A DNA stretch of 64,000 bases from Escherichia phage UGJNEcP3. The stretch lies in sequence record OV876907. The stretch is one strand, 5' to 3'. Under the pieces are notes generated by a model. It worked only from the letters and a program-made list of their open reading frames with translations. It did no database searches and had not been told where the DNA came from. Within the stretch, counting starts at the first letter, position 1; each line of letters opens with the position of its first letter. A program made the position numbers and the translations under genes. Shown piece by piece: positions 573 to 53,599 of this stretch.

Positions 573-1737
573 CTAAATCCATCTCTTCTAAATCGTTTTC
601 GATATCAGCAGCGCTTTGGGTATTTCCACCTAATTTAACAGCAACGTTCTTAGAGACGCGAGAGTTAATAAGGTCGTTAACCGCATCGTCAACTTCTTTA
701 ATAGAATTAATTGCACCGAGCTTATACTTATTCTCGATTGCTTCACGGAACGGAGCATGTTTAAACAGCGGTCCCCAGAACTCAACGCAATCGGTAGCTT
801 TAGCACGCCATGCTTTTTCTTCTTGAACCATTTCACCTGTGGTTTCGTCAAGGAATGCACGATTATACCAGCCAGCTTTAGGTTTCACGACAAAGCCGAT
901 ATCAGTAGCCATTTCAAGCAATCCACTGAATGGGTCGATACCACCTTCGAAGTTAACGGTGATAGGGAACGTTGATTTCTCTTTAACCGTACGAGATTTC
1001 TCGGCCTTCAGTGTGAAGTCATAACCTGTGAGCTCGGTACCATCTTTAACCTGACGTTTAGAGATAAAGAATACGGTAGAAGCAGAGTACAGAATACCAG
1101 TACCACCACCCATAATCTCTTTAGGATACATTCCACCAATTTCCATAGCCGTGTGGTTAATTGCTACACAAGGAATATCCTTGATGGTCAGATAAGGCGT
1201 TACGATACGGAACAGAGATTTCAGTGACTTAGCACGAGTCATATCACCTACAACTTTCTCGTTCAAAGCATCTTCGGTTTCTTTCTTAGAAGCAGTGTTA
1301 CCAATAGAGTCGATAAAGATAATAACCTTTTCGCCACGAGTAATTTCTTCTAACTGGTTGGTCATATCAACTTTAAGCTGTTCGACTGACTGGATTGGGG
1401 TATGAACCACACGTTCCAAATCAACACCCATCGAACGGAAATAAGATTCTGAAGCACCAAACTCAGAGTCATAGAACAAACAAATTGCGTCTGGATATTT
1501 CTTCATATATGCCGCAACCATGGTAAGTCCAAACAACGTTTTAAAGTGCTTAGATGGAGCAGCAAAGATTGTCAAACCTGATTGTAAGCCTGCATTCAAC
1601 GCACCACCCAATGCAATATTCAGCATAGGGATACGAGTAGGAACTTCGTCACGACCATTAAACAATTTAGATTTGGTCAGGTCGGCAGTCATTTTAGAAG
1701 TAGAAGCTTTAATCAAACGGGATTTTAAATCAGACAT
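565..1737 (-). CDS. uvsX: UvsX RecA-like recombinase
   Basis: 390 aa; MSDLKSRLIKASTSK N-terminus and overall sequence closely match T4 UvsX as recalled; length matches. Confidence 0.95.
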   Translation of the reverse strand: MSDLKSRLIKASTSKMTADLTKSKLFNGRDEVPTRIPMLNIALGGALNAGLQSGLTIFAAPSKHFKTLFGLTMVAAYMKKYPDAICLFYDSEFGASESYFRSMGVDLERVVHTPIQSVEQLKVDMTNQLEEITRGEKVIIFIDSIGNTASKKETEDALNEKVVGDMTRAKSLKSLFRIVTPYLTIKDIPCVAINHTAMEIGGMYPKEIMGGGTGILYSASTVFFISKRQVKDGTELTGYDFTLKAEKSRTVKEKSTFPITVNFEGGIDPFSGLLEMATDIGFVVKPKAGWYNRAFLDETTGEMVQEEKAWRAKATDCVEFWGPLFKHAPFREAIENKYKLGAINSIKEVDDAVNDLINSRVSKNVAVKLGGNTQSAADIENDLEEMDLDD

Positions 1738-1784
1738 TATATTTTTCCATAGGCATCATTATATTTTACTCACGTTTTAAGATA

Positions 1785-1825
1785 GGGTAATTATATCACT
1801 TCACATTTACAGCGTTAAAGGACCA
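1785..1825 (-). promoter_or_regulatory. Sigma70-type promoter with extended -10 (TGATATAAT) upstream of uvsX
   Basis: Reverse complement of about 1790-1798 is TGATATAAT; TTAACG-like -35 at 17-bp spacing. Confidence 0.5.
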
Positions 1826-2708
1826 CGTCCTCATAACTTGGCATTTCGTGCTCAGAATGGATATGGGCACCGAAATAAATGAATTCAGCTAGACCAGGAT
1901 GGAATACTAAACCAGGATTCTCGTGATAAATGATATGAGGTCTTGATTTCAGAATCTGATAATATTCAACCTTACTAGGTTTGAATTTAATAATCTCTAC
2001 ATCAGGACGATAGTCTTCACGTTTAAATGAATCATTCGGGTCGGTGATATAAAGGCGAGAACCTTCAGCTGCAGCTTGGTCTACAACTCTTTCGAATTGA
2101 TAACATTTATCAGAGATACGGAATGGATGGAAAATACCATCAATTTTAATAGGCGCTAGACCTTCAGAGTAACGCTCAATTACTGCGGGATTAATTACCT
2201 TTTGGTCTACAAAAATCTTATCAGAGGACGCACCTCGTGACACCAGGACGTCTTTCTGGCATTGATTCAGGACTGTAGTATAAATCGAACGTTCAACTGA
2301 GGACACGTCGGTATCAATAAACTCGTCGATATAATAACGAGGAACTTCAGGGTCCATTGTAATGTTAAAGTTGAATTGTACAGTCTGAGTGCCATCATAA
2401 CCTGTGATATCGGTTACTAATCCTGAGCAGTCATAGTATTCGATTAACGAATCAACAACGAACTCGTTTTCAGACCAAAAATGTTTACGAGTTTCATAAG
2501 CATTTTCTTTATACCAAAGCGGTACAAAATTCAGTTCAGGAAATAATTCAATGCATTCTTTGATATCGCTCGAATTTCTAGGATAAGCCAGATAATCACC
2601 TGGGCAAGCACGGTTTAAATGGAGTTGAAAATTACCGTCCTTAAGGACGGCATATTCACCTGTTTCGTAACTACGCATACTGAAAATAGGAACGATAAAC
2701 AGACTCAT
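1815..2708 (-). CDS. Hypothetical protein at the beta-glucosyltransferase position; candidate DNA base-modifying transferase
   Basis: 297 aa; no resemblance to T4 beta-gt as recalled; ATG overlaps the stop of the upstream TS-family gene (ATGA); last gene of the five-gene coupled operon. Confidence 0.6.
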   Translation of the reverse strand: MSLFIVPIFSMRSYETGEYAVLKDGNFQLHLNRACPGDYLAYPRNSSDIKECIELFPELNFVPLWYKENAYETRKHFWSENEFVVDSLIEYYDCSGLVTDITGYDGTQTVQFNFNITMDPEVPRYYIDEFIDTDVSSVERSIYTTVLNQCQKDVLVSRGASSDKIFVDQKVINPAVIERYSEGLAPIKIDGIFHPFRISDKCYQFERVVDQAAAEGSRLYITDPNDSFKREDYRPDVEIIKFKPSKVEYYQILKSRPHIIYHENPGLVFHPGLAEFIYFGAHIHSEHEMPSYEDVVL

Positions 2709-3403
2709 TTCAGGAATCCTCGAACATAGTCAAAATCACGTTCAAATACATGTGCACTAACCATAGTATGGGAATACGTACCCAGACCAACACCACACTG
2801 TTCAGCAATAAAGGCCATCAGTTTACCCTGCAGATAGAAATCCAGCTGCATAACGATAGCACAGTTCTGTGAACGCATATGAGTGTGTGCATACAGACGT
2901 CCATCACGAATATAATATGTCACCGAATCGGTACAAGGATATTCTAAGGATTCGTCAGAATCAAGGAGGGCTTGGTCTTGTTCTTGGAGAATCTGGAACA
3001 CAACTCTTCTTGAGTTAGGCTTCTCTTTAAGCTCTTTAAGTAAGGCTGGGAGTTGGGCCACAATTCGAGGTCCATAGAAAGTGTTGAAGTTTGCAGGCAA
3101 TACGTCACTTTTCGGCTTATCAATGAACTTAGCAACATTAGGGTATTCCTTAAATGCTTCGGCGGCGTCAGTACCACCGGAAATCATAAACTTCCAGAAA
3201 GATTCGGCATAATCATAGTTGATACGATTAATACGAGGGTCGGTGAATTTATAGGTGCTTGCATCCAGAACTTCAACTGAAGCCGAACCAATTTCATAAC
3301 AACGACCGATACGAGAATCAACTGCAAACTGTGGAGCTTCCAGGATTTCTTCGTTCATTTGTTTAAATGCATTTTCAAAACTAACAGCGGTAATGTGTTT
3401 CAT
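2705..3403 (-). CDS. 42: Thymidylate-synthase-family pyrimidine hydroxymethylase, dCMP hydroxymethylase-like (divergent)
   Basis: 232 aa; PNSRR, YPCT (candidate catalytic Cys) and MRSQNCAIVMQLD motifs align with the TS/dCMP-hydroxymethylase pattern; Asp at the position that is Asp in T4 dCH and Asn in TS; syntenic with T4 gene 42 but far more divergent than neighbouring core genes. Confidence 0.75.
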   Translation of the reverse strand: MKHITAVSFENAFKQMNEEILEAPQFAVDSRIGRCYEIGSASVEVLDASTYKFTDPRINRINYDYAESFWKFMISGGTDAAEAFKEYPNVAKFIDKPKSDVLPANFNTFYGPRIVAQLPALLKELKEKPNSRRVVFQILQEQDQALLDSDESLEYPCTDSVTYYIRDGRLYAHTHMRSQNCAIVMQLDFYLQGKLMAFIAEQCGVGLGTYSHTMVSAHVFERDFDYVRGFLK

Positions 3404-3936
3404 TTATTCACCTCATAATTAATGTATTCATTAAGACGTTTTAATTCTACCATATCGACGTTAAGCAAGTTATTATGGCCGTCGTGATTTAAGATTTTAA
3501 ACACGTTTTCAAAACATGTTTCATATTGGCGGATAGTTAGGTTGAACTCATCTTTAGTCAGTTTAATGAGGTCATCTTCAAAGTCTTTATCCAACGGATT
3601 ACGGGTTAAAATAACCTCAATGATATTGAATTCTTTTTTGAAATCAATCCAATCTGCTAGTTCTACATAAGGGTCCATTTCACCACGAAGGAATCCCGAG
3701 TAAACAATATTACTAGGATAACCACGGTCTAGGATGTAAACGAAATTAGGGTCTAAAAACTTATACAACGTCTCGACTAAAGCCTTGTCATTATCAGTTC
3801 CTAACGAAATACATTTACCATTAATCTTTTTAGGAAAATCAATAAGACGATATTTCTTATCAGATAAAAGGGTTTCGATTAAAGTAGACTTCCCGGAATT
3901 ATCCGGGCCGTCTATAACAATGATTTTTGGATTCAT
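3400..3936 (-). CDS. P-loop kinase, polynucleotide-kinase-like
   Basis: 178 aa; Walker A IVIDGPDNSGKST at the N-terminus, similar in layout to the T4 Pnk kinase domain; ATGA-coupled to neighbours on both sides. Confidence 0.7.
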   Translation of the reverse strand: MNPKIIVIDGPDNSGKSTLIETLLSDKKYRLIDFPKKINGKCISLGTDNDKALVETLYKFLDPNFVYILDRGYPSNIVYSGFLRGEMDPYVELADWIDFKKEFNIIEVILTRNPLDKDFEDDLIKLTKDEFNLTIRQYETCFENVFKILNHDGHNNLLNVDMVELKRLNEYINYEVNK

Positions 3937-4292
3937 GGATGATAGGCCTTATAACTATCAAGAGTTCCTTCGCGAACCATTTCTTTAAAGTGGTCAGGAC
4001 GAATTGCTCGGTCATCGATGATAAAAGTATAACTCGGCTTGTGTGTAAGCAAATTGTGATATTTCAATCCAATTTTTTCAAGGTTCTTAACCAATGCAGG
4101 AACTACTTCAACCAAGATTCGGCCTGGGCCGCATGAAGTCATACCACGGGCAGTGAACAATGTAATCTCATGACCTTCATCGTACAGCTTATTAATCATG
4201 GACACCATTTCGGTGTCCGGTTTAAAGTTTTCATAATCACGGTCATCTTGCCAGTGAGTAATGGTATTATCGATGTCAAAGCACAAATGCAT
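3933..4292 (-). CDS. HAD-superfamily phosphatase (Pnk-phosphatase/GmhB-like)
   Basis: Motifs FDIDNT (DxDxT), LFTAR and IIDDR; start placed at the second ATG (4290-4292), which has a GGAAGAAA Shine-Dalgarno, rather than the ORF-track start at 4307. Confidence 0.7.
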   Translation of the reverse strand: MHLCFDIDNTITHWQDDRDYENFKPDTEMVSMINKLYDEGHEITLFTARGMTSCGPGRILVEVVPALVKNLEKIGLKYHNLLTHKPSYTFIIDDRAIRPDHFKEMVREGTLDSYKAYHP

Positions 4293-5965
4293 TAAATTTT
4301 CTTCCATTGTTTGTGGAGTTCAGTAGAACCTGTAGGTTTATATTTTACACCAGTTTCCTGGTCAAGCAAAACCCACTTATCAGGGCATCGAGTGATAATT
4401 TGGGCCGTAATAGGGTCACGAACTTCATCGACAAATTCACCTGTAATAAGCTTACGCTTACGAGGATGCCGCTTCAGCAGCACACTCAGTTGATATAGAC
4501 CGTTGTAATAAGCGCCCAGAGCTTTCAGAGGGTTATTTTTAAAGTAACCTGCCAACGCCATCCAGATAACAGCAATCCAGAGCTTGTGCTTAAATGTACA
4601 CATTGGAATATCATCTAAAGGCATAACCTTTTCAATATCAACGAATACTCGAGTTCCATTACGAGTTAAGCCACCCCATAGAGGGTCAGAGTTAAATTTG
4701 TCATAACCATCGATAGAATAAAGCACCTTAGCTTCATCATAAATCGCAGGGCCTTTAGAACTATTACCAAAATAACCGCGTGGGTCGATGATTTTAATAT
4801 CACCTTCGTCCGACAGCATAATATTACTGTAGTGCGGGTCGCCGTGAATAAGTTGGTACGGTTCTTTATGTTCAGACAGAATTTCTAGTGCATGACGAAG
4901 AAGTTTTTCTGGGTCGCCTACCTTAAAGTCATTGACATGGGTAATGCCCTGTGGAGCAAAGCCTTCAATCAATCCAGCAATAGAAGCATTACGAATAAGG
5001 ACCTTGTCCAATACTTCTTTCTTAACATCGGAATACCATTGCTCATCGGATGGATTATCGATAGTTCCACCAAATGAACGTAATGCACTAATGACCTTAT
5101 AAACCATGAGGACTTTAGTTTCTTTAGACATAAACCGATAGGCATCTGCCATGGTGCGACCAAAGATACGTTCCATTTTAATGAATTCACCTGGAGCAAA
5201 GTCTACAATGCTCGGAACAAATTCAGAATCAATAGAATTATACCAATTGATTTCTTTAGATTGGATTTCTTTACCTAATTCGTTGGTAGGTACTTTAATA
5301 GCCAGATTCTCAGTGAACTCTAATTTATTAAATTCACGGTTAATTTCAGAATCTTCATGGGCCTTAGCCAGTTTCAATTTGTCACCGACATCAACTACAA
5401 AGTCCAGCTTACGTTCGGTCAAATGGACCATCGAATCTAGGTTATCAGCAAGGTCTTCGCCATAATTAGAACGGTTGAAGCCTGTCCAATTAGCCACCTG
5501 ATACAAACCAACCACACCACCGCCAGTACCAATTTCACGCAAGTACGGTTCTTCAAATGTAAAACGACAGTCAGTCCCGTAGGTATAGCAATAGTCGTTA
5601 TCCCACTCAACTTTATGACCCTCAGGAATGATGTCACACCAGTTAAACAAGACGTTATGGCCAATGATATCTTCAGCAATGCAATCGATAGCATGAGCTG
5701 AACCATTAGCCACATCTACGTTACGAATAGTGAATTTAGGCTTATCACTATTAATCATGTTAATGGATTTAATATAGCCTTTAACGAGGTCGTTAAATTT
5801 GCTGTGAATAACCAGAATAATTTCATCTGATTGGTTACTATACAAATCATACAAATGTTTTAATACAGTATGTTGTTTGTAGTTAACCAATACCTTCGGG
5901 ATTTCGTTAGTAATTGGATACAACCGTGAGCCAAGACCCGCGCCTAAAATAACAACCTTTTTCAT
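4292..5965 (-). CDS. Bifunctional sugar-phosphate nucleotidyltransferase / APH-type kinase fusion
   Basis: N-terminus KKVVILGAGLGSRLYPIT is the RmlA/GlmU-type G-x-G-x-R-L nucleotidyltransferase signature; C-terminal half has HGDPHYSNIM and IIDPRG (aminoglycoside/choline/sugar-1-kinase fold). Start trimmed to MKKVVIL (ATG 5963-5965, SD GAGGAA) because a TATAAT -10 overlaps the ORF-track start. Confidence 0.85.
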   Translation of the reverse strand: MKKVVILGAGLGSRLYPITNEIPKVLVNYKQHTVLKHLYDLYSNQSDEIILVIHSKFNDLVKGYIKSINMINSDKPKFTIRNVDVANGSAHAIDCIAEDIIGHNVLFNWCDIIPEGHKVEWDNDYCYTYGTDCRFTFEEPYLREIGTGGGVVGLYQVANWTGFNRSNYGEDLADNLDSMVHLTERKLDFVVDVGDKLKLAKAHEDSEINREFNKLEFTENLAIKVPTNELGKEIQSKEINWYNSIDSEFVPSIVDFAPGEFIKMERIFGRTMADAYRFMSKETKVLMVYKVISALRSFGGTIDNPSDEQWYSDVKKEVLDKVLIRNASIAGLIEGFAPQGITHVNDFKVGDPEKLLRHALEILSEHKEPYQLIHGDPHYSNIMLSDEGDIKIIDPRGYFGNSSKGPAIYDEAKVLYSIDGYDKFNSDPLWGGLTRNGTRVFVDIEKVMPLDDIPMCTFKHKLWIAVIWMALAGYFKNNPLKALGAYYNGLYQLSVLLKRHPRKRKLITGEFVDEVRDPITAQIITRCPDKWVLLDQETGVKYKPTGSTELHKQWKKI

Positions 5966-5984
5966 TATCTGTTCCTCAAGTGAA

Positions 5985-6020
5985 TGTAGGTACATTATAC
6001 ACTATTTTTAATAAATTGGT
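5985..6020 (-). promoter_or_regulatory. Promoter (-10 TATAAT) heading the five-gene modification operon
   Basis: Reverse complement of 5994-5999 is TATAAT, about 30 nt upstream of the nucleotidyltransferase-kinase ATG. Confidence 0.45.
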
Positions 6021-6025
6021 ATTGC

Positions 6026-6526
6026 TTAAATCTTATCTTTACCGATTTCAATACACTGTTCTATTGCCGCCGGTACTTTGGTCTTGAGCTTATCGATTTG
6101 TTTCTTATAATCACGAGCTTTACCGAAGCTCTCGGTTTCGAGCATTTCGTAATAACGAGCCTCGTGGATGGAAATCTGTAGATTGATATGGTTTACGCAC
6201 ATCGCATACAGTTTCTGCTTTTTGTACAAATCATCTTGGCGCTTCATTTCTGCCTGGTGTTTGGCTAGTACCGCTTCACGCTTAGACTCTTGTTCACGTT
6301 GGAATTCGATTTCCCTTTGAGCATATTTTGCACAGTTATTACCACATTGATTATTAGCTCGGGTATACACAAGTCCAGAACCGGCACGGAATTTCATTTC
6401 GCCATCGAATTGTTTCTGTTCAGCTGCGATACGAGCTTTACCAACTTCATCGGCTGAAACTGCATCACCATATTGGACCGCACAACCTGATAGGAGCATA
6501 CTCATTGCGATAATTAACTTTTTCAT
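6026..6526 (-). CDS. Putative lipoprotein
   Basis: 166 aa; N-terminus MKKLIIAMSMLLSGC is a signal peptide with lipobox; SD GAGGAT upstream. Confidence 0.65.
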   Translation of the reverse strand: MKKLIIAMSMLLSGCAVQYGDAVSADEVGKARIAAEQKQFDGEMKFRAGSGLVYTRANNQCGNNCAKYAQREIEFQREQESKREAVLAKHQAEMKRQDDLYKKQKLYAMCVNHINLQISIHEARYYEMLETESFGKARDYKKQIDKLKTKVPAAIEQCIEIGKDKI

Positions 6527-6533
6527 AATATCC

Positions 6534-6671
6534 TCAATTAAAACAGTTATACTTAATTTGTGCTATAAGAATAATCCATCCTATGATTAATGTCGGAATC
6601 ATTGGCGGAATTGCCACTGCCCAATAAACGGTAAAGGCAGCCATTATAAGAAATAAAATAATTATCTTCAT
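6534..6671 (-). CDS. Small hydrophobic membrane protein (imm.1-like position)
   Basis: 45 aa ORF found by hand (MKIIILFLIMAAFTVYWAVAIPPMIPTLIIGWIILIAQIKYNCFN); ATG overlaps the imm stop (ATGA); below the ORF-track size cutoff. Confidence 0.35.
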   Translation of the reverse strand: MKIIILFLIMAAFTVYWAVAIPPMIPTLIIGWIILIAQIKYNCFN

Positions 6672-6904
6672 TGTTTAACGATAATGATTTGTGCGGTTGA
6701 TTTACGTTCAGCGACGATAGCCCAGATTAAAGCCACTACCCAACCAATCATCGTCCATCCTAACAGGAGATTAAGGAAGAAGATTCCGACATTGTTACGA
6801 GTGCCTCGCAGAAGAGCTAGAATCCATGGTAAGAAGTAAGCGATGAACATCATAACCAGAGAACCGAATCCTAAAACACCAGCACTAACGATTAAAGCTT
6901 CCAT
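6668..6904 (-). CDS. imm: Superinfection immunity protein Imm-like membrane protein
   Basis: 78 aa, two predicted TM helices with the N-x-x-x-I-F-x-x-N-x-L-L-G-W-T-x-I-G-W-x-x-A-L-I-W-A pattern typical of the Imm family; directly downstream of gene 43 as in T4. Confidence 0.7.
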   Translation of the reverse strand: MEALIVSAGVLGFGSLVMMFIAYFLPWILALLRGTRNNVGIFFLNLLLGWTMIGWVVALIWAIVAERKSTAQIIIVKQ

Positions 6905-6929
6905 TGTAATTTCCTCTTAAGTAGTTGTT

Positions 6930-6968
6930 AGGAAGGATAATACCACGTTCCATGTGGTATGTAAACAC
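6930..6968 (-). promoter_or_regulatory. Early-type promoter (GTTTAC -35, TATTAT -10) upstream of imm
   Basis: gtaaac at 6961-6966 and ataata at 6937-6942 on the plus strand, read as GTTTAC-N18-TATTAT on the minus strand. Confidence 0.5.
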
Positions 6969-9680
6969 TTAAAAGTCAAACATGTCAAATAATGTTGCTT
7001 TTTTCTCGTAGTCGATTTTAGCAGACTCGGTGAAACCGGTAAGAGGTTTGATAAAGGTCTTTTGGAACAATACGTTGTAGTCCATCCAACGGAGGACTTG
7101 GTCACGAATCTGAACTGGAAGTTCAATACCTGATGGCCATGCCATACAAGCTTCACCGAACGGGTTGCCTTCTTTAAGTGGAAGTACATATACCTTTTCA
7201 CCGTCGACGATACGTGGCATAGTCAAATCACCAGCAGAAGCACGCATGTAAGCTAAGCAACCTTTGATGTGATACGGGCATTTAGAACCAGGGAATCCAC
7301 CTTCATTATATTTCTCGATGTTGTTAGCACTGGATACTGCTGCAATGCTTACATAGTTTAGTTCGTTAAATTCCTTATTAAACTGTTTGAAATATTCTTG
7401 CAAAGAGGCCTCGCCTTCCTGAAGCATACGACGGATACATTCTTTCAGAGCTTTCTGAACTGCTTTAGGTGTACTTGATTTCTGAGTTTCGAGACCCATG
7501 ATTTTCAAGTGTGGTTCAGCATAACGAGTACCTTCCATGTCCCAAACGTTCAGTGCATAACGTTTCTTGCCTGTCCAGAATCCACCAAGACCTTTAGAAC
7601 CAAGTGGAGGTCCTGCGATAGCTTCTCGGTCCATGAACATCAAGTGCTGTTTGTTGTTCATGTATTCACACATCTCACGGAAGCCTGCATCAATAGCAGG
7701 TTCCATACGTTCACGTGCAAATTTATCTAAGAAGTCGACCCAGTGGTTAGTATCACGGAATTTTTCTTCGCCAACTTTATTGATGATGGCATCTGCCTTA
7801 ACATAAATGGAGTCAGTATCACCATAGAGCACGAACTTCTGGTTTTCAGTCTTGCACACTCTATTCAGATATTCGTTAACCTTACGTTCAATCCATTGGA
7901 GGGCCATTTGACCAAACAGTGTGATTGCAGTTGCGTTCCTGAGGTCATAATAACGGAACCATACGTTACCAAGTGCACCATAAAGGGAGTTGATAAGCAA
8001 CTTACGGTTAATCTGAGCAGTGTTACCTGCAACTTCAGTGAGCTCGGCTTTCTTCAACATTTCTCTTAAAGAAGGCCCTGACAGTGCTTTAATCTGGGCT
8101 TTGATTTCGTCAGAGAAGTCAAAACGATAATCGATATCTAGTGGACTATCAACTGAGAGATTAGGATTTTCCAATGCTTCTTTAATTAACTCACCATTAC
8201 GTTGAGCTGCAAGCATGTAACCTTTATGTTCTTTACGCTGCAAGAATACCTTGGTGATTTCTGTCGGAATCACACCTTCACGGTCTTTATAATACATCAT
8301 GCCGTTAGGAGAGCAACTGTAGGTGTCGCTAGGACGCTGAGCAGTTCCGGCAATATATTCATGTATCGGTGCGTTGGCGAATGTCCCTGCGATGGTCTCT
8401 GGGCTTATATTCACTTGCCGAATGATACTCGGGTACAGAGATGTAAGGTCAAAACTCATTACATATTTGTAAGCGTTAGGAATAGGTTCCTTAACGAAAG
8501 CACCAGGATAAGGTTGGACCACGTGTGAACGACCCTGTGGAATTACCTTGCCTTGTTCTTTAAGACTATTAAAGATAATAGCGTCCCAAGTCTTAATTGG
8601 ACTGAACACCGACTGAATCTGCATCTTGGCATAATAACCCATGTCCAAACTCAGAAGAATGAACTGACGTTTCATATCAATCTGCACTACACGATATACG
8701 TCGATAATGTTATAGGAAATATATCGTTGGTGGTTCGTCTCACGTAACTTAGAGATTGGACCATCATATTTCAACTTACCTACTTTCAATTCATATTCAG
8801 AAACATAATCCAGAGAATAAGAAGGCTGGTTGGTAAAGCTGAATTTTTTATACAGGTCGATATAATCCAGAACAGAGATACCGAACAGTGTAATAATTTC
8901 ACGAGCACCGTACATGTTCTCAATAACTTTAACACGAGTTTTACGATGCGGGCTTAATCGCTTAGCAGTGTTCTCACCGAACAGATTTTTCAGACGGTTA
9001 TAAACGTACGGCACGTCAAATGACTCAACGTTCCACCCAGTCAAAATCACAGGAGTTTTCTGTTGCCAGAAATTCAGGTACTCAAGCATCATTTCTTCTT
9101 CAGAATTAAACGAAAGATAAACGATTTTGTCAATGATTTCCTGTGGAACTTCGTCACCACCTTCGTCTTGGAGTTTCTCAGCGATTTTAATCGACCACTC
9201 TTCAACAGTACCATAAGGCGAAACTAAAAGGTCGAATACATAGAATTTATCGTCAATCGAGTCGTAGTGGGTAATGGCATCGATAGGATGTTTAGCCTGA
9301 GCTGGTTCAGGGAATCCATCAGGAGATGTTACCTCGATGTCGAAGTTAGCAATACGAATCTTAGAAGAATCATATTTGATTTCTTTACGATAGGTATCAG
9401 ACAAATAGGCTAATTTATAGTCGTCCATACCCAGGGCTTCGAGACCCATATCGTCCATACGTTTCATCCATTGGGATGCATCACGCATAGAGTCGAATTC
9501 TTTCTTAACACAACCCTTACCATAGATATCAATGTATTTTACGGCTTGCTCTGGATTGGCATGCATAAACATTGTAGGCTTGTATGGAACTTCACGACTA
9601 CGTTCGTTACCATTTTTATCGATGTAACGTTCGAGAATATTATCACCGATTTGTTCGACTGTCAAATAGAATTCTTGCAT
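6969..9680 (-). CDS. 43: DNA polymerase gp43 (family B)
   Basis: Start trimmed to MQEFYLTVEQIGD (ATG 9678-9680, SD AAGGAAA); sequence closely matches T4/RB69 gp43 as recalled (FDIEVT exonuclease motif, YGDTDS). Confidence 0.97.
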   Translation of the reverse strand: MQEFYLTVEQIGDNILERYIDKNGNERSREVPYKPTMFMHANPEQAVKYIDIYGKGCVKKEFDSMRDASQWMKRMDDMGLEALGMDDYKLAYLSDTYRKEIKYDSSKIRIANFDIEVTSPDGFPEPAQAKHPIDAITHYDSIDDKFYVFDLLVSPYGTVEEWSIKIAEKLQDEGGDEVPQEIIDKIVYLSFNSEEEMMLEYLNFWQQKTPVILTGWNVESFDVPYVYNRLKNLFGENTAKRLSPHRKTRVKVIENMYGAREIITLFGISVLDYIDLYKKFSFTNQPSYSLDYVSEYELKVGKLKYDGPISKLRETNHQRYISYNIIDVYRVVQIDMKRQFILLSLDMGYYAKMQIQSVFSPIKTWDAIIFNSLKEQGKVIPQGRSHVVQPYPGAFVKEPIPNAYKYVMSFDLTSLYPSIIRQVNISPETIAGTFANAPIHEYIAGTAQRPSDTYSCSPNGMMYYKDREGVIPTEITKVFLQRKEHKGYMLAAQRNGELIKEALENPNLSVDSPLDIDYRFDFSDEIKAQIKALSGPSLREMLKKAELTEVAGNTAQINRKLLINSLYGALGNVWFRYYDLRNATAITLFGQMALQWIERKVNEYLNRVCKTENQKFVLYGDTDSIYVKADAIINKVGEEKFRDTNHWVDFLDKFARERMEPAIDAGFREMCEYMNNKQHLMFMDREAIAGPPLGSKGLGGFWTGKKRYALNVWDMEGTRYAEPHLKIMGLETQKSSTPKAVQKALKECIRRMLQEGEASLQEYFKQFNKEFNELNYVSIAAVSSANNIEKYNEGGFPGSKCPYHIKGCLAYMRASAGDLTMPRIVDGEKVYVLPLKEGNPFGEACMAWPSGIELPVQIRDQVLRWMDYNVLFQKTFIKPLTGFTESAKIDYEKKATLFDMFDF

Positions 9681-9724
9681 TTCATTTCCTTTATAGACGA
9701 GTGATTGTCTTTTGTTTGTTGATG

Positions 9725-9765
9725 AATCATTATACTCCAAAAGGGACCGAAGTCCCTTTGCTTAA
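9725..9765 (-). promoter_or_regulatory. Stem-loop (UUCG tetraloop, U-tract) followed by GGAGTATAAT element upstream of gene 43
   Basis: Minus strand AAGGGAC-TTCG-GTCCCTTTTGGAGTATAATG; terminator-like hairpin immediately followed by a -10 hexamer. Confidence 0.45.
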
Positions 9766-23161: not shown

Positions 23162-23470
23162 TTAACGGTCACACCACCAACTCGATACTTCAAAATCAGG
23201 CTCGCCGTTTTCCCAATACCAAGGGCCAACTGGATGCCAATCGCCATGCTCATCTTCTTCAAATTCTTCAGATTCTAGCCCAACGTATTGCCATTGGACT
23301 TCATAAGCAGTGCCACCGATTACAACAGTATTCTCGCCATATGGGTTAGCCACAACAAAATCAATACCTTCTGCTTTAGCCAACCAAACCATATATTCGT
23401 ATAGCTTATATTCCAGGTCATCTTCGGTACCATCACCTAGAAAAATAGTCTGTTCATTTAATTCAATCAT
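23162..23470 (-). CDS. Hypothetical acidic protein
   Basis: 102 aa, Trp- and acid-rich. Confidence 0.45.
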   Translation of the reverse strand: MIELNEQTIFLGDGTEDDLEYKLYEYMVWLAKAEGIDFVVANPYGENTVVIGGTAYEVQWQYVGLESEEFEEDEHGDWHPVGPWYWENGEPDFEVSSWWCDR

Positions 23471-52837: not shown

Positions 52838-52845
<8 letters not shown>

Positions 52846-53599
52846 TTTTATTTCCTAATAATTTATCAATAGTAGTGTATAGTTCAGAAAGAGTGCCGTT
52901 ATTTTCAACAACAACGTCACCAGGTAAAATTGGTAGACCCGCTTCAGTGATGTGCGAGTCTTGTACTTGACCGGTTTCAGCGCGAACTACATGAATAATC
53001 GTAGCACCCATCGCTCTGAGTGAATCAATTTCGTGTGTTTGACGAACATCAGGTACGACATAGTATTTCGCATCAGAGTATATTTTATCAAAATAGTCTA
53101 AAGCGAACAACTTAACCCAATACATCTTATCAAATTGGTTAACAATAATATCAGTCCCAAGGGTCTGCATGAGACGACGTACTGACCAATTGTTATTTTT
53201 ATTTATTACTTCAAATAGCTGGTCTTTTGTTTCTTCAGACAGATATTGGACCGGGGTAAGACCGTAATGATATGCGGTAAGAACATCAATTCCTGGAATA
53301 GGAAGGATATTATTCAGTTTAACAATAGCATGTTCAAAAATATCAACCACATCATACGGTTTTAAAGGAAGGGTTTCTTCACGGTCGTAACCGATACCTT
53401 CAAAACAATTAAAATCAAGTTTAGGCATATAGCTACGGTCGAATACAGGGTCATCAGATATGTATTCATAAGCTTCAGCCAGATACTTTTTAATAGGACC
53501 AGCGAGTTGGAATTTTACGGAATCCATATTCTCAATTACATAGTTAGCAACGGTATCCTTACCGCTACGTTTGATTCCTACAATTGATATTAGTTTCAT
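52838..53599 (-). CDS. 1: Deoxynucleoside monophosphate kinase gp1
   Basis: 253 aa; P-loop GIKRSGKDT and WSVRRLMQTLGTD...MYWVKLFALDY...MGATIIHVVR match T4 gp1. Confidence 0.93.

What the first reader, a model, noticed from the sequence alone, without database searches (positions are those of the whole stretch)
3400..4292. Split polynucleotide-kinase-like pair (HAD phosphatase then P-loop kinase) embedded in the modification operon
The HAD protein (FDIDNT, LFTAR, IIDDR) and the P-loop protein (IVIDGPDNSGKST) resemble the two domains of T4 Pnk but as separate ORFs in reversed order, translationally coupled to each other and to the hydroxymethylase. In this context they may act on a phosphorylated sugar or on a phosphorylated hydroxymethyl base rather than on nucleic-acid ends.
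Basis: inference. Interest (0 to 1): 0.65.

Follow-up and report, generated by a model that had tools for sequence, protein, structure and literature searches.

The report
Arabinose-DNA pathway phosphatase plus kinase
These two small phage genes are not a split DNA-end repair enzyme; they are two separate steps of an already published pathway that replaces cytosine in phage DNA with arabinose-decorated 5-hydroxycytosine: a sugar-bisphosphate phosphatase, and a thymidylate-kinase-like nucleotide kinase whose exact substrate is still untested.

Summary
The window is Escherichia phage UGJNEcP4 (Dhakavirus, T4-like; 100% identity). Both ORFs, their motifs and the overlapping start/stop codons are real, on the minus strand.

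The neighbouring "hydroxymethylase" is really a flavin-dependent dCMP 5-hydroxylase (79% identical to RB69 gp48).

HAD-kinase adjacency is limited to Dhakavirus and close Klebsiella phages. The phage also encodes a normal fused Pnk and a T4 gp1-type dNMP kinase.

So there is no split Pnk. This is a known system of low novelty. The only open point is the kinase's substrate, most likely 5-hydroxy-dCMP.

The parts
4292..5965 (-). Bifunctional AfhE-like enzyme (557 aa; longest ORF extends to 5995). The N-terminal domain is a sugar-1-phosphate nucleotidyltransferase and the C-terminal domain is an APH/choline-kinase-fold sugar kinase. Predicted reactions: D-arabinose-5-P 1-kinase, then UDP-arabinofuranose pyrophosphorylase.
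   Evidence: Pfam NTP_transferase 34.3 bits and APH 25.6 bits, both above cut-off. 44% identical over full length to DLP3 gp82 and 41-44% to RB69 gp52:53. Function taken from HY126 AfhE as reported in PMC13326640. GAGGA Shine-Dalgarno 8 nt upstream, and a TATAAT about 30 nt upstream.
3933..4292 (-). HAD phosphatase, AfhF ortholog (119 aa; alternative start at 4307 gives 124 aa). Predicted Mg-dependent D-arabinofuranose-1,5-bisphosphate 5-phosphatase giving Araf-1-P.
3400..3936 (-). Thymidylate-kinase-fold P-loop kinase (178 aa), homolog of RB69 gp45 and DLP3 gp78 ('nucleotide kinase'). Predicted modified-dCMP kinase (5-hydroxy-dCMP to 5-hydroxy-dCDP); the substrate is untested.
2705..3403 (-). 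Thymidylate-synthase-fold dCMP 5-hydroxylase (5hodCMP synthase) homolog, 232 aa. It is not a hydroxymethylase.
   Evidence: E 1.5e-125 to PDB 9IQU/9IQC/9IR2 (deposited only as 'Thymidylate synthase'; that they are the HY126 enzyme is inferred from the entry-code range shared with 9IQW and from He et al. as cited in PMC13326640), against E 4.7e-6 to T4 gp42 1B49. 79% identical to RB69 gp48 and 71% to DLP3 gp80, both experimentally shown to make 5hodCMP (PMC13326640 section 24). The MRSQNCA(I/V)VMQLDF active-site segment matches 9IQU apart from one conservative I/V change.
1815..2708 (-). First DNA arabinosyltransferase candidate (AraT1; 297 aa), homolog of DLP3 gp79 and RB69 gp46:47.
   Evidence: 50% identical to DLP3 gp79 and 64-69% to RB69 gp46:47. 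No Pfam or NCBIfam hit. Role proposed in PMC13326640 section 26.
52838..53599 (-). T4 gp1-type deoxynucleoside monophosphate kinase of the same phage (253 aa). It is a second, unrelated dNMP kinase that probably also phosphorylates 5hodCMP.
   Evidence: Annotated in OV877765.1 at 76066-76827; translation checked in window coordinates. The RB69 ortholog gp159 converts 5hodCMP to 5hodCDP in vitro (PMC13326640 section 24).

Best explanation
The two ORFs belong to the five-gene arabinosyl-5-hydroxycytosine (Ara-5hoC, 'Afh') DNA-hypermodification operon of a Dhakavirus. They serve two different branches of it. Sugar branch: AfhE-like enzyme (4292-5965) phosphorylates D-arabinose-5-P at C1. The HAD protein (AfhF ortholog) removes the 5-phosphate from Araf-1,5-bisphosphate. 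The N-terminal domain of AfhE then makes UDP-Araf from Araf-1-P. Base branch: the ThyA homolog hydroxylates dCMP to 5-hydroxy-dCMP. The thymidylate-kinase-like P-loop protein most likely phosphorylates this modified dCMP to the diphosphate, alongside the T4 gp1-type kinase. Host NDP kinase and the phage polymerase then place 5hoC in DNA, and the 297-aa glycosyltransferase arabinosylates it. How well each step is supported: by orthology to characterised enzymes for the HAD, AfhE-like and hydroxylase steps; by inference from fold, motifs and gene linkage for the kinase substrate. The phage encodes no arabinose-5-P isomerase and no second glycosyltransferase. It therefore probably draws A5P from host KdsD/GutQ and makes only mono-arabinosylated 5hoC.
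Against: No enzyme of this phage has been assayed, and its DNA has not been analysed chemically. RB69's gp1-type kinase already converts 5hodCMP to 5hodCDP, so a second 5hodCMP kinase looks redundant. Yet it is kept in about 340 T4-like genomes, which hints at a distinct substrate. The kinase scores below the curated Pfam and NCBIfam Tmk cut-offs (15.8 vs 27 bits; 18.7 vs 83 bits). Its LID region carries an invariant acidic F-x-D-D motif instead of the usual arginines, which is not typical of NMP kinases. Distant family members are fused to an MBD4-like DNA glycosylase domain, which could point to an action on DNA.
Confidence: 0.7

Rival explanations
1. Split polynucleotide kinase/phosphatase: the HAD protein removes 3'-phosphates and the P-loop protein phosphorylates 5'-OH ends of nucleic acids, working together like T4 Pnk (end healing against anticodon nucleases).
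Confidence: 0.03
2. The Tmk-like kinase is specific for the glycosylated nucleotide. The first arabinosyltransferase acts on 5hodCMP before replication, the kinase phosphorylates arabinosyl-5hodCMP (which gp1 cannot handle), and the polymerase incorporates an already arabinosylated dCTP analogue.
For: The trio ThyA homolog + GT1 + kinase is conserved as a unit across very different phages, in different orders. The kinase is retained although a gp1-type kinase already handles 5hodCMP. PMC13326640 section 26 reports no arabinosylation of 5hoC-containing DNA by single GTs in vitro, and states that the experiments do not distinguish mononucleotide-level from post-replicative first arabinosylation.
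Against: All characterised phage DNA glycosylations (T-even glucosylation; DLP3 gp76/77 on RB69 DNA) act on DNA. In T4 the hydroxymethylase and beta-gt genes are also adjacent without nucleotide-level glycosylation (my own knowledge of the T4 map). There is no direct evidence.
Confidence: 0.12
3. The kinase acts on DNA: it phosphorylates the 5-hydroxyl of 5hoC in the polymer (by analogy with 5-hmdU DNA kinases), or it works with a base-flipping glycosylase-like module.
For: Six distant family members (E 1e-14 to 1.5e-4) carry a C-terminal MBD4-like HhH-GPD domain. For the three whose contigs were read (P0113, P0116, P0110), two sit next to a ThyA homolog; P0110's contig starts just upstream of it, so its neighbour there is unknown. 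The profile of those domains matches MBD4 glycosylase at E 5e-20 with the catalytic Asp retained. The family has an invariant extra acidic residue D121 that could be a general base for hydroxyl phosphorylation. Precedent: 5-HMUDK plus HhH-fold aGPT-Pplase (PMC8989533).
Against: M6 gp54 (5-HMUDK) shares only the P-loop with the window protein. The fusions' C-terminal domains gave no aGPT-Pplase hit in Pfam searches that listed hits up to E 1 and 0.01. No MBD4-like domain exists anywhere in UGJNEcP4, nor in the RB69 and DLP3 cluster regions fetched. The Tmk-type NMP-site motifs, including the P-loop Asp, are conserved. A phosphorylated 5hoC has no obvious role in O-glycosylation.
Confidence: 0.06
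4. The kinase serves the sugar branch or general nucleotide supply, for example a UMP/CMP kinase boosting UTP for UDP-arabinose, or a second sugar-phosphate kinase.
For: In this phage it lies between the sugar-branch HAD gene and the base-branch hydroxylase and is translationally coupled to both. There is a weak N-terminal NCBIfam hit to (d)CMP kinase (E 2e-4, P-loop only).
Against: In other lineages it follows the ThyA homolog and GT, not AfhE/AfhF, and it occurs in loci with no visible arabinose genes (L015, L018). AfhE already supplies the sugar kinase activity. The P-loop acidic residue and the DRxxxSNxxY motif fit a pyrimidine-nucleotide site of the Tmk type (the reading of these residues rests on recalled Tmk structures).
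Confidence: 0.06

Closest known systems
Phage HY126 AfhF, D-arabinose-1,5-bisphosphate phosphatase (PDB 9IQW; He et al. 2026 as cited in PMC13326640); orthologs RB69 gp51 and DLP3 gp81
   Different: The N-terminus is a few residues shorter or ambiguous (start at 4292 or 4307). It lies in a cluster that lacks the arabinose-5-P isomerase. No assay exists for this protein.
RB69 gp45 / DLP3 gp78 / RL38J1 gp214 'nucleotide kinase' of glycosyl-5hoC clusters (PMC13326640 Table 1; PMC8056088)
   Same: Homologous over the full length (37-38% identity, E about 1e-30). Same Tmk-like fold hits (4S35, 3KB2/YorR in the paper; 2V54, 4DWJ, 2AXP here). Same cluster.
   Different: It is the most diverged component of the cluster (37% vs 61-79% for its neighbours) and has lower GC (33% vs 39-42%). 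It sits between HAD and hydroxylase rather than after GT1. Homology to RL38J1 gp214 was not tested here.
Thymidylate kinase family (e.g. vaccinia A48R 2V54, S. aureus 4DWJ, yeast 1TMK) and B. subtilis SPbeta YorR (2AXP/3KB2)
   Different: Only 14-17% identity. Below the Pfam and NCBIfam cut-offs. The LID region is replaced by a hairpin carrying an invariant F-x-D-D-x-I motif. About 25-35 residues shorter than the Tmk structures matched (178 aa vs about 187-212 residues). The family is tiny and phage-restricted (59 representatives at E<=1e-3 among 1.84 billion).
T4 polynucleotide kinase/3'-phosphatase (PseT, 1LTQ)
   Different: Pnk is one polypeptide with the kinase first. Here there are two genes, HAD first, and they are not adjacent in most relatives. 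The kinase fold is closer to Tmk. The phage has its own complete Pnk.
GmhB, D,D-heptose-1,7-bisphosphate phosphatase (2GMW), and the EcbF/BcbF capsule biosynthesis phosphatase family (TIGR01689)
   Different: Different substrate (pentose 1,5-bisphosphate). Scores are far below the family cut-offs (52 vs 162 bits). It is not a member of either family.
T4 gp1-type dNMP kinase (1DEK; RB69 gp159)
   Same: Probable overlapping substrate (a modified dCMP). Both are encoded by this phage.
5-hmdU DNA kinase (5-HMUDK, e.g. M6 gp54) with HhH-fold aGPT-Pplase
   Same: A P-loop kinase encoded beside a ThyA-family enzyme in a hypermodification cluster. Distant relatives of the window kinase are fused to an HhH glycosylase-like domain.
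   Different: No similarity beyond the P-loop. The fused domain is MBD4-like, not aGPT-Pplase. No such domain exists in this phage.

Membership tests
AfhF (arabinose-1,5-bisphosphate phosphatase) of Ara-5hoC phages | Close sequence and structural similarity to the characterised HY126 enzyme | tested here: met
AfhF (arabinose-1,5-bisphosphate phosphatase) of Ara-5hoC phages | Intact HAD catalytic motifs I-IV (DxDxT, T/S, K, DD) | tested here: met
   D6, D8, T47, K85, D93 and D94 are invariant and T10 nearly invariant (>=90%) in 27 homologs.
AfhF (arabinose-1,5-bisphosphate phosphatase) of Ara-5hoC phages | Encoded immediately downstream of the bifunctional AfhE gene within a cluster holding the 5hodCMP synthase and an arabinosyltransferase | tested here: met
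   Window gene order and overlaps; the same order in RB69 and DLP3.
AfhF (arabinose-1,5-bisphosphate phosphatase) of Ara-5hoC phages | Mg-dependent dephosphorylation of Araf-1,5-P2 to Araf-1-P | not testable with these tools
   Needs an enzyme assay; known only for HY126 AfhF (PMC13326640 section 27).
T4-type polynucleotide kinase/phosphatase (Pnk) | Kinase and phosphatase in one polypeptide, or at least an evolutionarily conserved gene pair | tested here: not met
   Separate ORFs. In RB69 the kinase (gp45) and HAD (gp51) are about 3 kb apart with four to five annotated genes between them; in DLP3 two genes lie between them. Adjacency is seen only in Dhakavirus and related Klebsiella phages.
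T4-type polynucleotide kinase/phosphatase (Pnk) | Kinase domain related to the Pnk 5'-kinase domain | tested here: not met
T4-type polynucleotide kinase/phosphatase (Pnk) | Phosphatase domain related to the Pnk 3'-phosphatase domain | tested here: inconclusive
Thymidylate kinase superfamily | Tmk fold with P-loop GxDxxGK(S/T), FP-x-x and DR-x motifs | tested here: met
Thymidylate kinase superfamily | Passes the curated family thresholds for dTMP kinase (that is, is an equivalog of Tmk) | tested here: not met
   Pfam PF02223 15.8 bits vs cut-off 27; NCBIfam TIGR00041 18.7 bits vs 83.25. It should not be annotated as 'thymidylate kinase'.
Thymidylate kinase superfamily | Phosphorylation of a (modified) deoxypyrimidine monophosphate | not testable with these tools
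   Inferred from motifs and gene linkage only.
Arabinosyl-5-hydroxycytosine (Afh) hypermodification cluster | ThyA-fold dCMP 5-hydroxylase ortholog | tested here: met
   E 1.5e-125 to 9IQU/9IQC; 79% identical to RB69 gp48; T4 gp42 only E 4.7e-6.
Arabinosyl-5-hydroxycytosine (Afh) hypermodification cluster | AfhE-like bifunctional kinase/nucleotidyltransferase and first arabinosyltransferase | tested here: met
   44% identity to DLP3 gp82 and 50% to DLP3 gp79 over full length.
Arabinosyl-5-hydroxycytosine (Afh) hypermodification cluster | Phage-encoded arabinose-5-phosphate isomerase and second arabinosyltransferase (as in RB69 and DLP3) | tested here: not met
   tblastn of RB69 gp55 and gp3 and DLP3 gp83, gp76 and gp77 against the whole UGJNEcP4 genome found nothing at E<=0.01. 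The rIIA-topoisomerase interval holds only three small ORFs. These are accessory, not defining; Shewanella phage Thanatos is also reported as mono-arabinosylated with a single ara-GT.
Arabinosyl-5-hydroxycytosine (Afh) hypermodification cluster | Arabinosylated 5-hydroxycytosine actually present in virion DNA | not testable with these tools
   Needs LC-MS or NMR of UGJNEcP4 DNA.
5-hmdU DNA kinase (5-HMUDK) | Sequence similarity to characterised 5-HMUDK and co-occurrence with aGPT-Pplase | tested here: not met
   M6 gp54 matches only the P-loop (31 residues, E 8e-4). No HhH or aGPT-Pplase-like ORF in the phage genome.

The most novel reading that the evidence does not exclude
The Tmk-like kinase is not a redundant 5hodCMP kinase. 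It would be dedicated either to an arabinosylated nucleotide or to 5hoC in DNA. In the first case the first arabinose is attached before replication, at the mononucleotide level, and the polymerase incorporates a glycosylated dCTP analogue. In the second case the enzyme is a DNA base kinase, as its relatives fused to MBD4-like glycosylase domains might suggest. Either would break the rule that phage DNA glycosylation is strictly post-replicative, or would add a new DNA base kinase.
Probability: 0.15. Interest if true: 0.6.

Novelty: already known. Interest (0 to 1): 0.22.

Why it matters
The finding does not reveal a new system. It places this Dhakavirus in the arabinosyl-5-hydroxycytosine group described in 2018-2026 (RB69, DLP3, HY126, Bas46/47, Serratia and Acinetobacter phages).

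It corrects misleading public annotation: 'phosphoheptose isomerase', 'thymidylate synthase' and 'thymidylate kinase' in OV877765.1 and RefSeq relatives.

The cluster here is a compact five-gene, translationally coupled version without isomerase or second transferase. That predicts mono-arabinosylated DNA and dependence on host KdsD/GutQ. It could also serve as a minimal cassette for engineering arabinosylated DNA.

This matters in practice because the modification determines sensitivity to restriction, CRISPR and type IV systems in phages considered for therapy.

The one real gap is the Tmk-like kinase: it is conserved with the hydroxylase and transferase everywhere, yet I found no assay of it in the papers I could read.

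Tried and rejected
1. Direct Pnk comparison. PDB sequence searches with both proteins found no Pnk. BLASTP against the phage's own Pnk gave only a P-loop match. The split-Pnk idea was rejected.

2. 5-hmdU DNA kinase idea, raised by the kinase-HhH fusions. M6 gp54 shares only the P-loop. The fused domain is MBD4-like, not aGPT-Pplase. No such domain exists in the phage. It is kept only as a low-probability rival.

3. The search for related loci with the 37-sequence kinase alignment failed because no stretch was conserved enough. Scans of IMG/VR with the fusion proteins P0129 and P0113 found nothing. Contexts were obtained with the look-up of encoding contigs instead.

4. The word-indexed homolog search for the kinase gave only 9 hits. 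The exhaustive search gave 59.

5. He et al. 2026 (Nat Chem Biol) and Mahler et al. 2025 (Cell Host Microbe) are not held in the library. Whatever they say about the kinase could not be checked. A full-text search for AfhA/AfhB names found nothing useful.

6. A search for an AfhF-like HAD in the metagenomic kinase loci found none in the sequence available. The L008 contig ends shortly after its AfhE-like gene.

7. The promoter/terminator consensus scan of 1500-7100 was no better than shuffles (17 sites vs 17.2 expected). Only a hand-read TATAAT upstream of the first gene is noted.

8. BLASTP alignment to E. coli ThyA (sequence recalled from memory) was ambiguous around the published D169N signature because of a two-residue gap. 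I rely instead on near-identity of that segment with the HY126 structure sequence.
Full report
**Source and gene layout.** The window is 100% identical to Escherichia phage UGJNEcP4 (OV877765.1), a T4-like Dhakavirus. Window position 1 corresponds to record position 23229. All genes around the finding lie on the minus strand. In transcription order they are:
- DNA polymerase gp43 (6969-9740) and imm (6668-6904)
- a small membrane ORF and a lipoprotein-like ORF (6026-6526)
- five tightly packed genes: a 557-aa gene (4292-5965), the HAD gene (3933-4292), the P-loop gene (3400-3936), a thymidylate-synthase homolog (2705-3403) and a 297-aa gene (1815-2708)
- uvsX

The gene junctions are TAATG, ATGA, ATGA and ATGA, so translational coupling along the whole five-gene block is plausible. 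Both proteins are conserved in hundreds of phage genomes: 343 records for the kinase and 390 for the HAD protein.

**The HAD protein.**
- Generic libraries barely recognise it: Pfam Hydrolase_3 scores 16 bits, and NCBIfam 'capsule biosynthesis phosphatase' scores 52 bits against a cut-off of 162.
- A sequence search of the PDB gives E 2.1e-51 to 9IQW.
- All four HAD motifs are invariant in 27 homologs.
- According to Lee et al. 2026 (PMC13326640, section 27), AfhE phosphorylates arabinofuranose-5-P to the 1,5-bisphosphate. AfhF removes one phosphate to give Araf-1-P, and the N-terminal domain of AfhE then makes UDP-arabinofuranose.
- The window's 557-aa protein is the AfhE counterpart. It has NTP_transferase and APH domains and is 44% identical to DLP3 gp82.
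- The HAD gene follows it directly here, in RB69 and in DLP3.

**The neighbouring 'hydroxymethylase' is a hydroxylase.** It matches PDB 9IQU/9IQC at E 1.5e-125. These entries are deposited only as 'Thymidylate synthase'; I infer they are the HY126 enzyme. The match to T4 dCMP hydroxymethylase is only E 4.7e-6. The protein is 79% identical to RB69 gp48. Lee et al. showed experimentally that RB69 gp48 makes 5-hydroxy-dCMP using O2 and a flavin. The 297-aa protein is 50% identical to DLP3 gp79 and 64-69% to RB69 gp46:47, the proposed first arabinosyltransferase. The operon is therefore the arabinosyl-5-hydroxycytosine pathway.

**The P-loop protein: family.**
- It is 37% identical to RB69 gp45 and 38% to DLP3 gp78. 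Lee et al. list both only as 'nucleotide kinase' on structural grounds.
- A profile of 37 family members hits B. subtilis SPbeta YorR (E 1.3e-12) and yeast Tmk (E 3.6e-9).
- That alignment lines up the P-loop GxDxxGKT, the FP-x-x motif and DR-x-x-x-S.

**The P-loop protein: conserved residues.**
- Invariant across the family: D12, K16, D70, R71 and D121. Nearly invariant: G10, G15, S75, N76, Y79 and Y138.
- From my own knowledge of Tmk structures, a lead rather than a test: the P-loop acidic residue contacts the 3'-OH of the deoxynucleotide, and the DRxxxSNxxY segment of M. tuberculosis Tmk contacts the base and the 2' position. This fits a deoxypyrimidine monophosphate site.
- The protein scores below the curated Tmk cut-offs, so it is a divergent superfamily member, not a thymidylate kinase.
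- Its LID region carries an invariant acidic F-x-D-D motif of unknown role.

**Gene linkage separates the two proteins into different modules.**
- *Adjacency is not conserved.* In RB69 the order is isomerase, AfhE, HAD, gp50, gp49, hydroxylase, GT1, kinase. In DLP3 it is isomerase, AfhE, HAD, hydroxylase, GT1, kinase, GT, GT. HAD-kinase adjacency is seen only in Dhakavirus and related Klebsiella phages.
- *The family is tiny.* An exhaustive search of 1.84 billion representatives found only 59 relatives of the kinase.
- *Relatives sit with a ThyA homolog.* Their contigs read:
  - [flavodoxin-like][ThyA homolog][GT1 homolog, 41% identical][kinase] (L015/16)
  - [ThyA homolog][kinase][GT4][radical SAM] (L018/19)
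  - [ThyA homolog][kinase fused to an HhH domain] (L007)
  - [dCMP deaminase][dUTPase][ThyA homolog][63 aa][kinase-HhH][FMN reductase][A5P isomerase][AfhE-like] (L008)
  - one protein, P0129, is a kinase-ThyA-like fusion
- *The HAD protein occurs without this kinase.* It is found in 27 Synechococcus-phage records. In the one informative row (S-CAM1) it lies next to a separate nucleotidyltransferase and a carbohydrate kinase.
- *Conclusion.* The HAD belongs to the sugar-activation module and the kinase to the base module. Their adjacency here is a local rearrangement. The kinase gene's lower GC (33% against 39-42%) and much lower identity to RB69 than its neighbours point to a separate history.

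**The phage does not need a split Pnk.** It encodes a canonical 301-aa fused Pnk at record 138895-139800. That Pnk shows no significant similarity to the HAD protein (E 0.79) and only a P-loop match to the kinase (E 0.013). The phage also encodes a T4 gp1-type dNMP kinase (window 52838-53599). The RB69 ortholog of that gp1-type kinase converts 5hodCMP to 5hodCDP in vitro.

**Most likely mechanism.** AfhE-like and HAD make UDP-Araf from arabinose-5-P. The ThyA homolog makes 5hodCMP. The Tmk-like kinase, together with or instead of gp1, makes 5hodCDP. After incorporation into DNA, the 297-aa transferase adds arabinose. The HAD, AfhE-like and hydroxylase steps rest on orthology to characterised enzymes. 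The kinase substrate is inferred.

**A minimal version of the cluster.** Whole-genome tblastn found no arabinose-5-P isomerase, no second or third arabinosyltransferase and no RB69 gp50 homolog. I therefore predict reliance on host KdsD/GutQ for A5P, and mono-arabinosylated 5hoC.

**What stays open.**
- The kinase seems redundant with gp1 yet is universally retained with the hydroxylase and GT1.
- Lee et al. could not get single transferases to arabinosylate 5hoC-DNA. They state that their data do not distinguish nucleotide-level from DNA-level first arabinosylation. A kinase dedicated to arabinosyl-5hodCMP is therefore not excluded.
- Distant relatives are fused to an MBD4-like glycosylase domain (E 5e-20 to MBD4, catalytic Asp kept), which could hint at a DNA-level role. 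Against that, the characterised 5-hmdU DNA kinase M6 gp54 is not similar beyond the P-loop, and this phage has no such domain.
- He et al. 2026 may already assign the kinase; I could not read that paper.

**Novelty.**
- The pathway is published: Thomas 2018 (PMC6024577), Mahler 2025, He 2026 and Lee 2026 (PMC13326640).
- Lee et al. name Dhakaviruses among the lineages with the conserved cluster.
- A 2021 survey already listed RB69p045 as a thymidylate-kinase homolog and RB69p051 as having 'the phosphatase domain of polynucleotide kinase' (PMC8056088).
- The finding is therefore ordinary: a correctly observed gene pair whose Pnk interpretation is wrong and whose true role is known or predicted in the literature.

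Noticed in passing
window 3400-3936: The kinase gene has 33.3% GC against 38.6-41.6% for its four operon neighbours. It is only 37% identical to its RB69 counterpart, whereas the neighbours are 41-79% identical. It also occupies a different slot in the cluster. This suggests relocation or replacement by a divergent copy in the Dhakavirus/Klebsiella-phage lineage.
   Followed up: partly
L007 1446-2390; L008 10001-11074; L009 127-1092 (metagenomic contigs): Distant members of the kinase family are fused to a C-terminal MBD4-like HhH-GPD DNA glycosylase domain. The profile of these domains matches MBD4 at E 5e-20, with the GxGKYxxDSY motif and catalytic Asp conserved. In L007 and L008 they lie next to ThyA homologs. 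A nucleotide-kinase/DNA-glycosylase fusion in hypermodification clusters appears undescribed. No such domain exists in UGJNEcP4, nor in the RB69 or DLP3 regions fetched.
   Followed up: partly
L006 268-1251 (protein P0129): A single 327-aa protein joins the Tmk-like kinase domain to a thymidylate-synthase-like C-terminal domain. This is a Rosetta-stone link between the kinase and the base-modifying enzyme.
   Followed up: partly
L008 11068-11613 (FMN_red) and L015 4383-4877 (Flavodoxin_2): Flavin reductase-like genes sit beside the ThyA homologs in two unrelated metagenomic clusters. This fits the flavin-dependent hydroxylase chemistry. The window's operon has no such gene, so reduced flavin would have to come from the host.
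   Followed up: no
whole UGJNEcP4 genome (window plus L001, L004, L020, L022, L023): The genome has no arabinose-5-phosphate isomerase, no RB69 gp3- or DLP3 gp76/77-type second arabinosyltransferase and no RB69 gp50 (U32 peptidase-like) homolog. The rIIA-topoisomerase interval, where RB69 keeps gp3, holds only three small ORFs. This is a minimal five-gene version of the pathway; it predicts mono-arabinosylation and dependence on host KdsD/GutQ.
   Followed up: yes
window 6026-6526 (minus strand): A 166-aa ORF has a lipoprotein-type signal peptide and lipobox (MKKLIIAMSMLLSGC). It lies between the imm region and the modification operon and has no family match. It may be a superinfection-exclusion or envelope protein.
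   Followed up: no
window about 5966-6025 (minus strand): The 60-nt gap upstream of the first operon gene contains a TATAAT about 30 nt before the ATG and a GAGGA Shine-Dalgarno. No convincing -35 or MotA box was seen in the correct orientation. The consensus scan of the region was no better than shuffled sequence.
   Followed up: partly
L018 1006-3681: A cluster reads ThyA homolog - kinase - Glyco_transf_4 - radical SAM/SPASM enzyme, with no arabinose genes visible. It may make a different glycosyl-5-hydroxycytosine or a further-processed sugar.
   Followed up: no
window 3933-4292 and 2705-3403; public records OV877765.1, NC_028847, NC_019500 and others: Public annotations are misleading. The HAD phosphatase is called 'phosphoheptose isomerase' (from PHROG 1238) or 'capsule biosynthesis protein'. 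The dCMP 5-hydroxylase is called 'thymidylate synthase' or 'dCMP hydroxymethylase'. The phage has a separate genuine thyA at record 147158-148021.
   Followed up: yes
L022 37075-43338 (record 124074-130337, outside the window): Three tandem Alt-like RNA polymerase ADP-ribosyltransferase paralogs are annotated (about 680-710 aa each). A homing endonuclease is also annotated between two 'DNA helicase' ORFs, at record 114599-115381.
   Followed up: no
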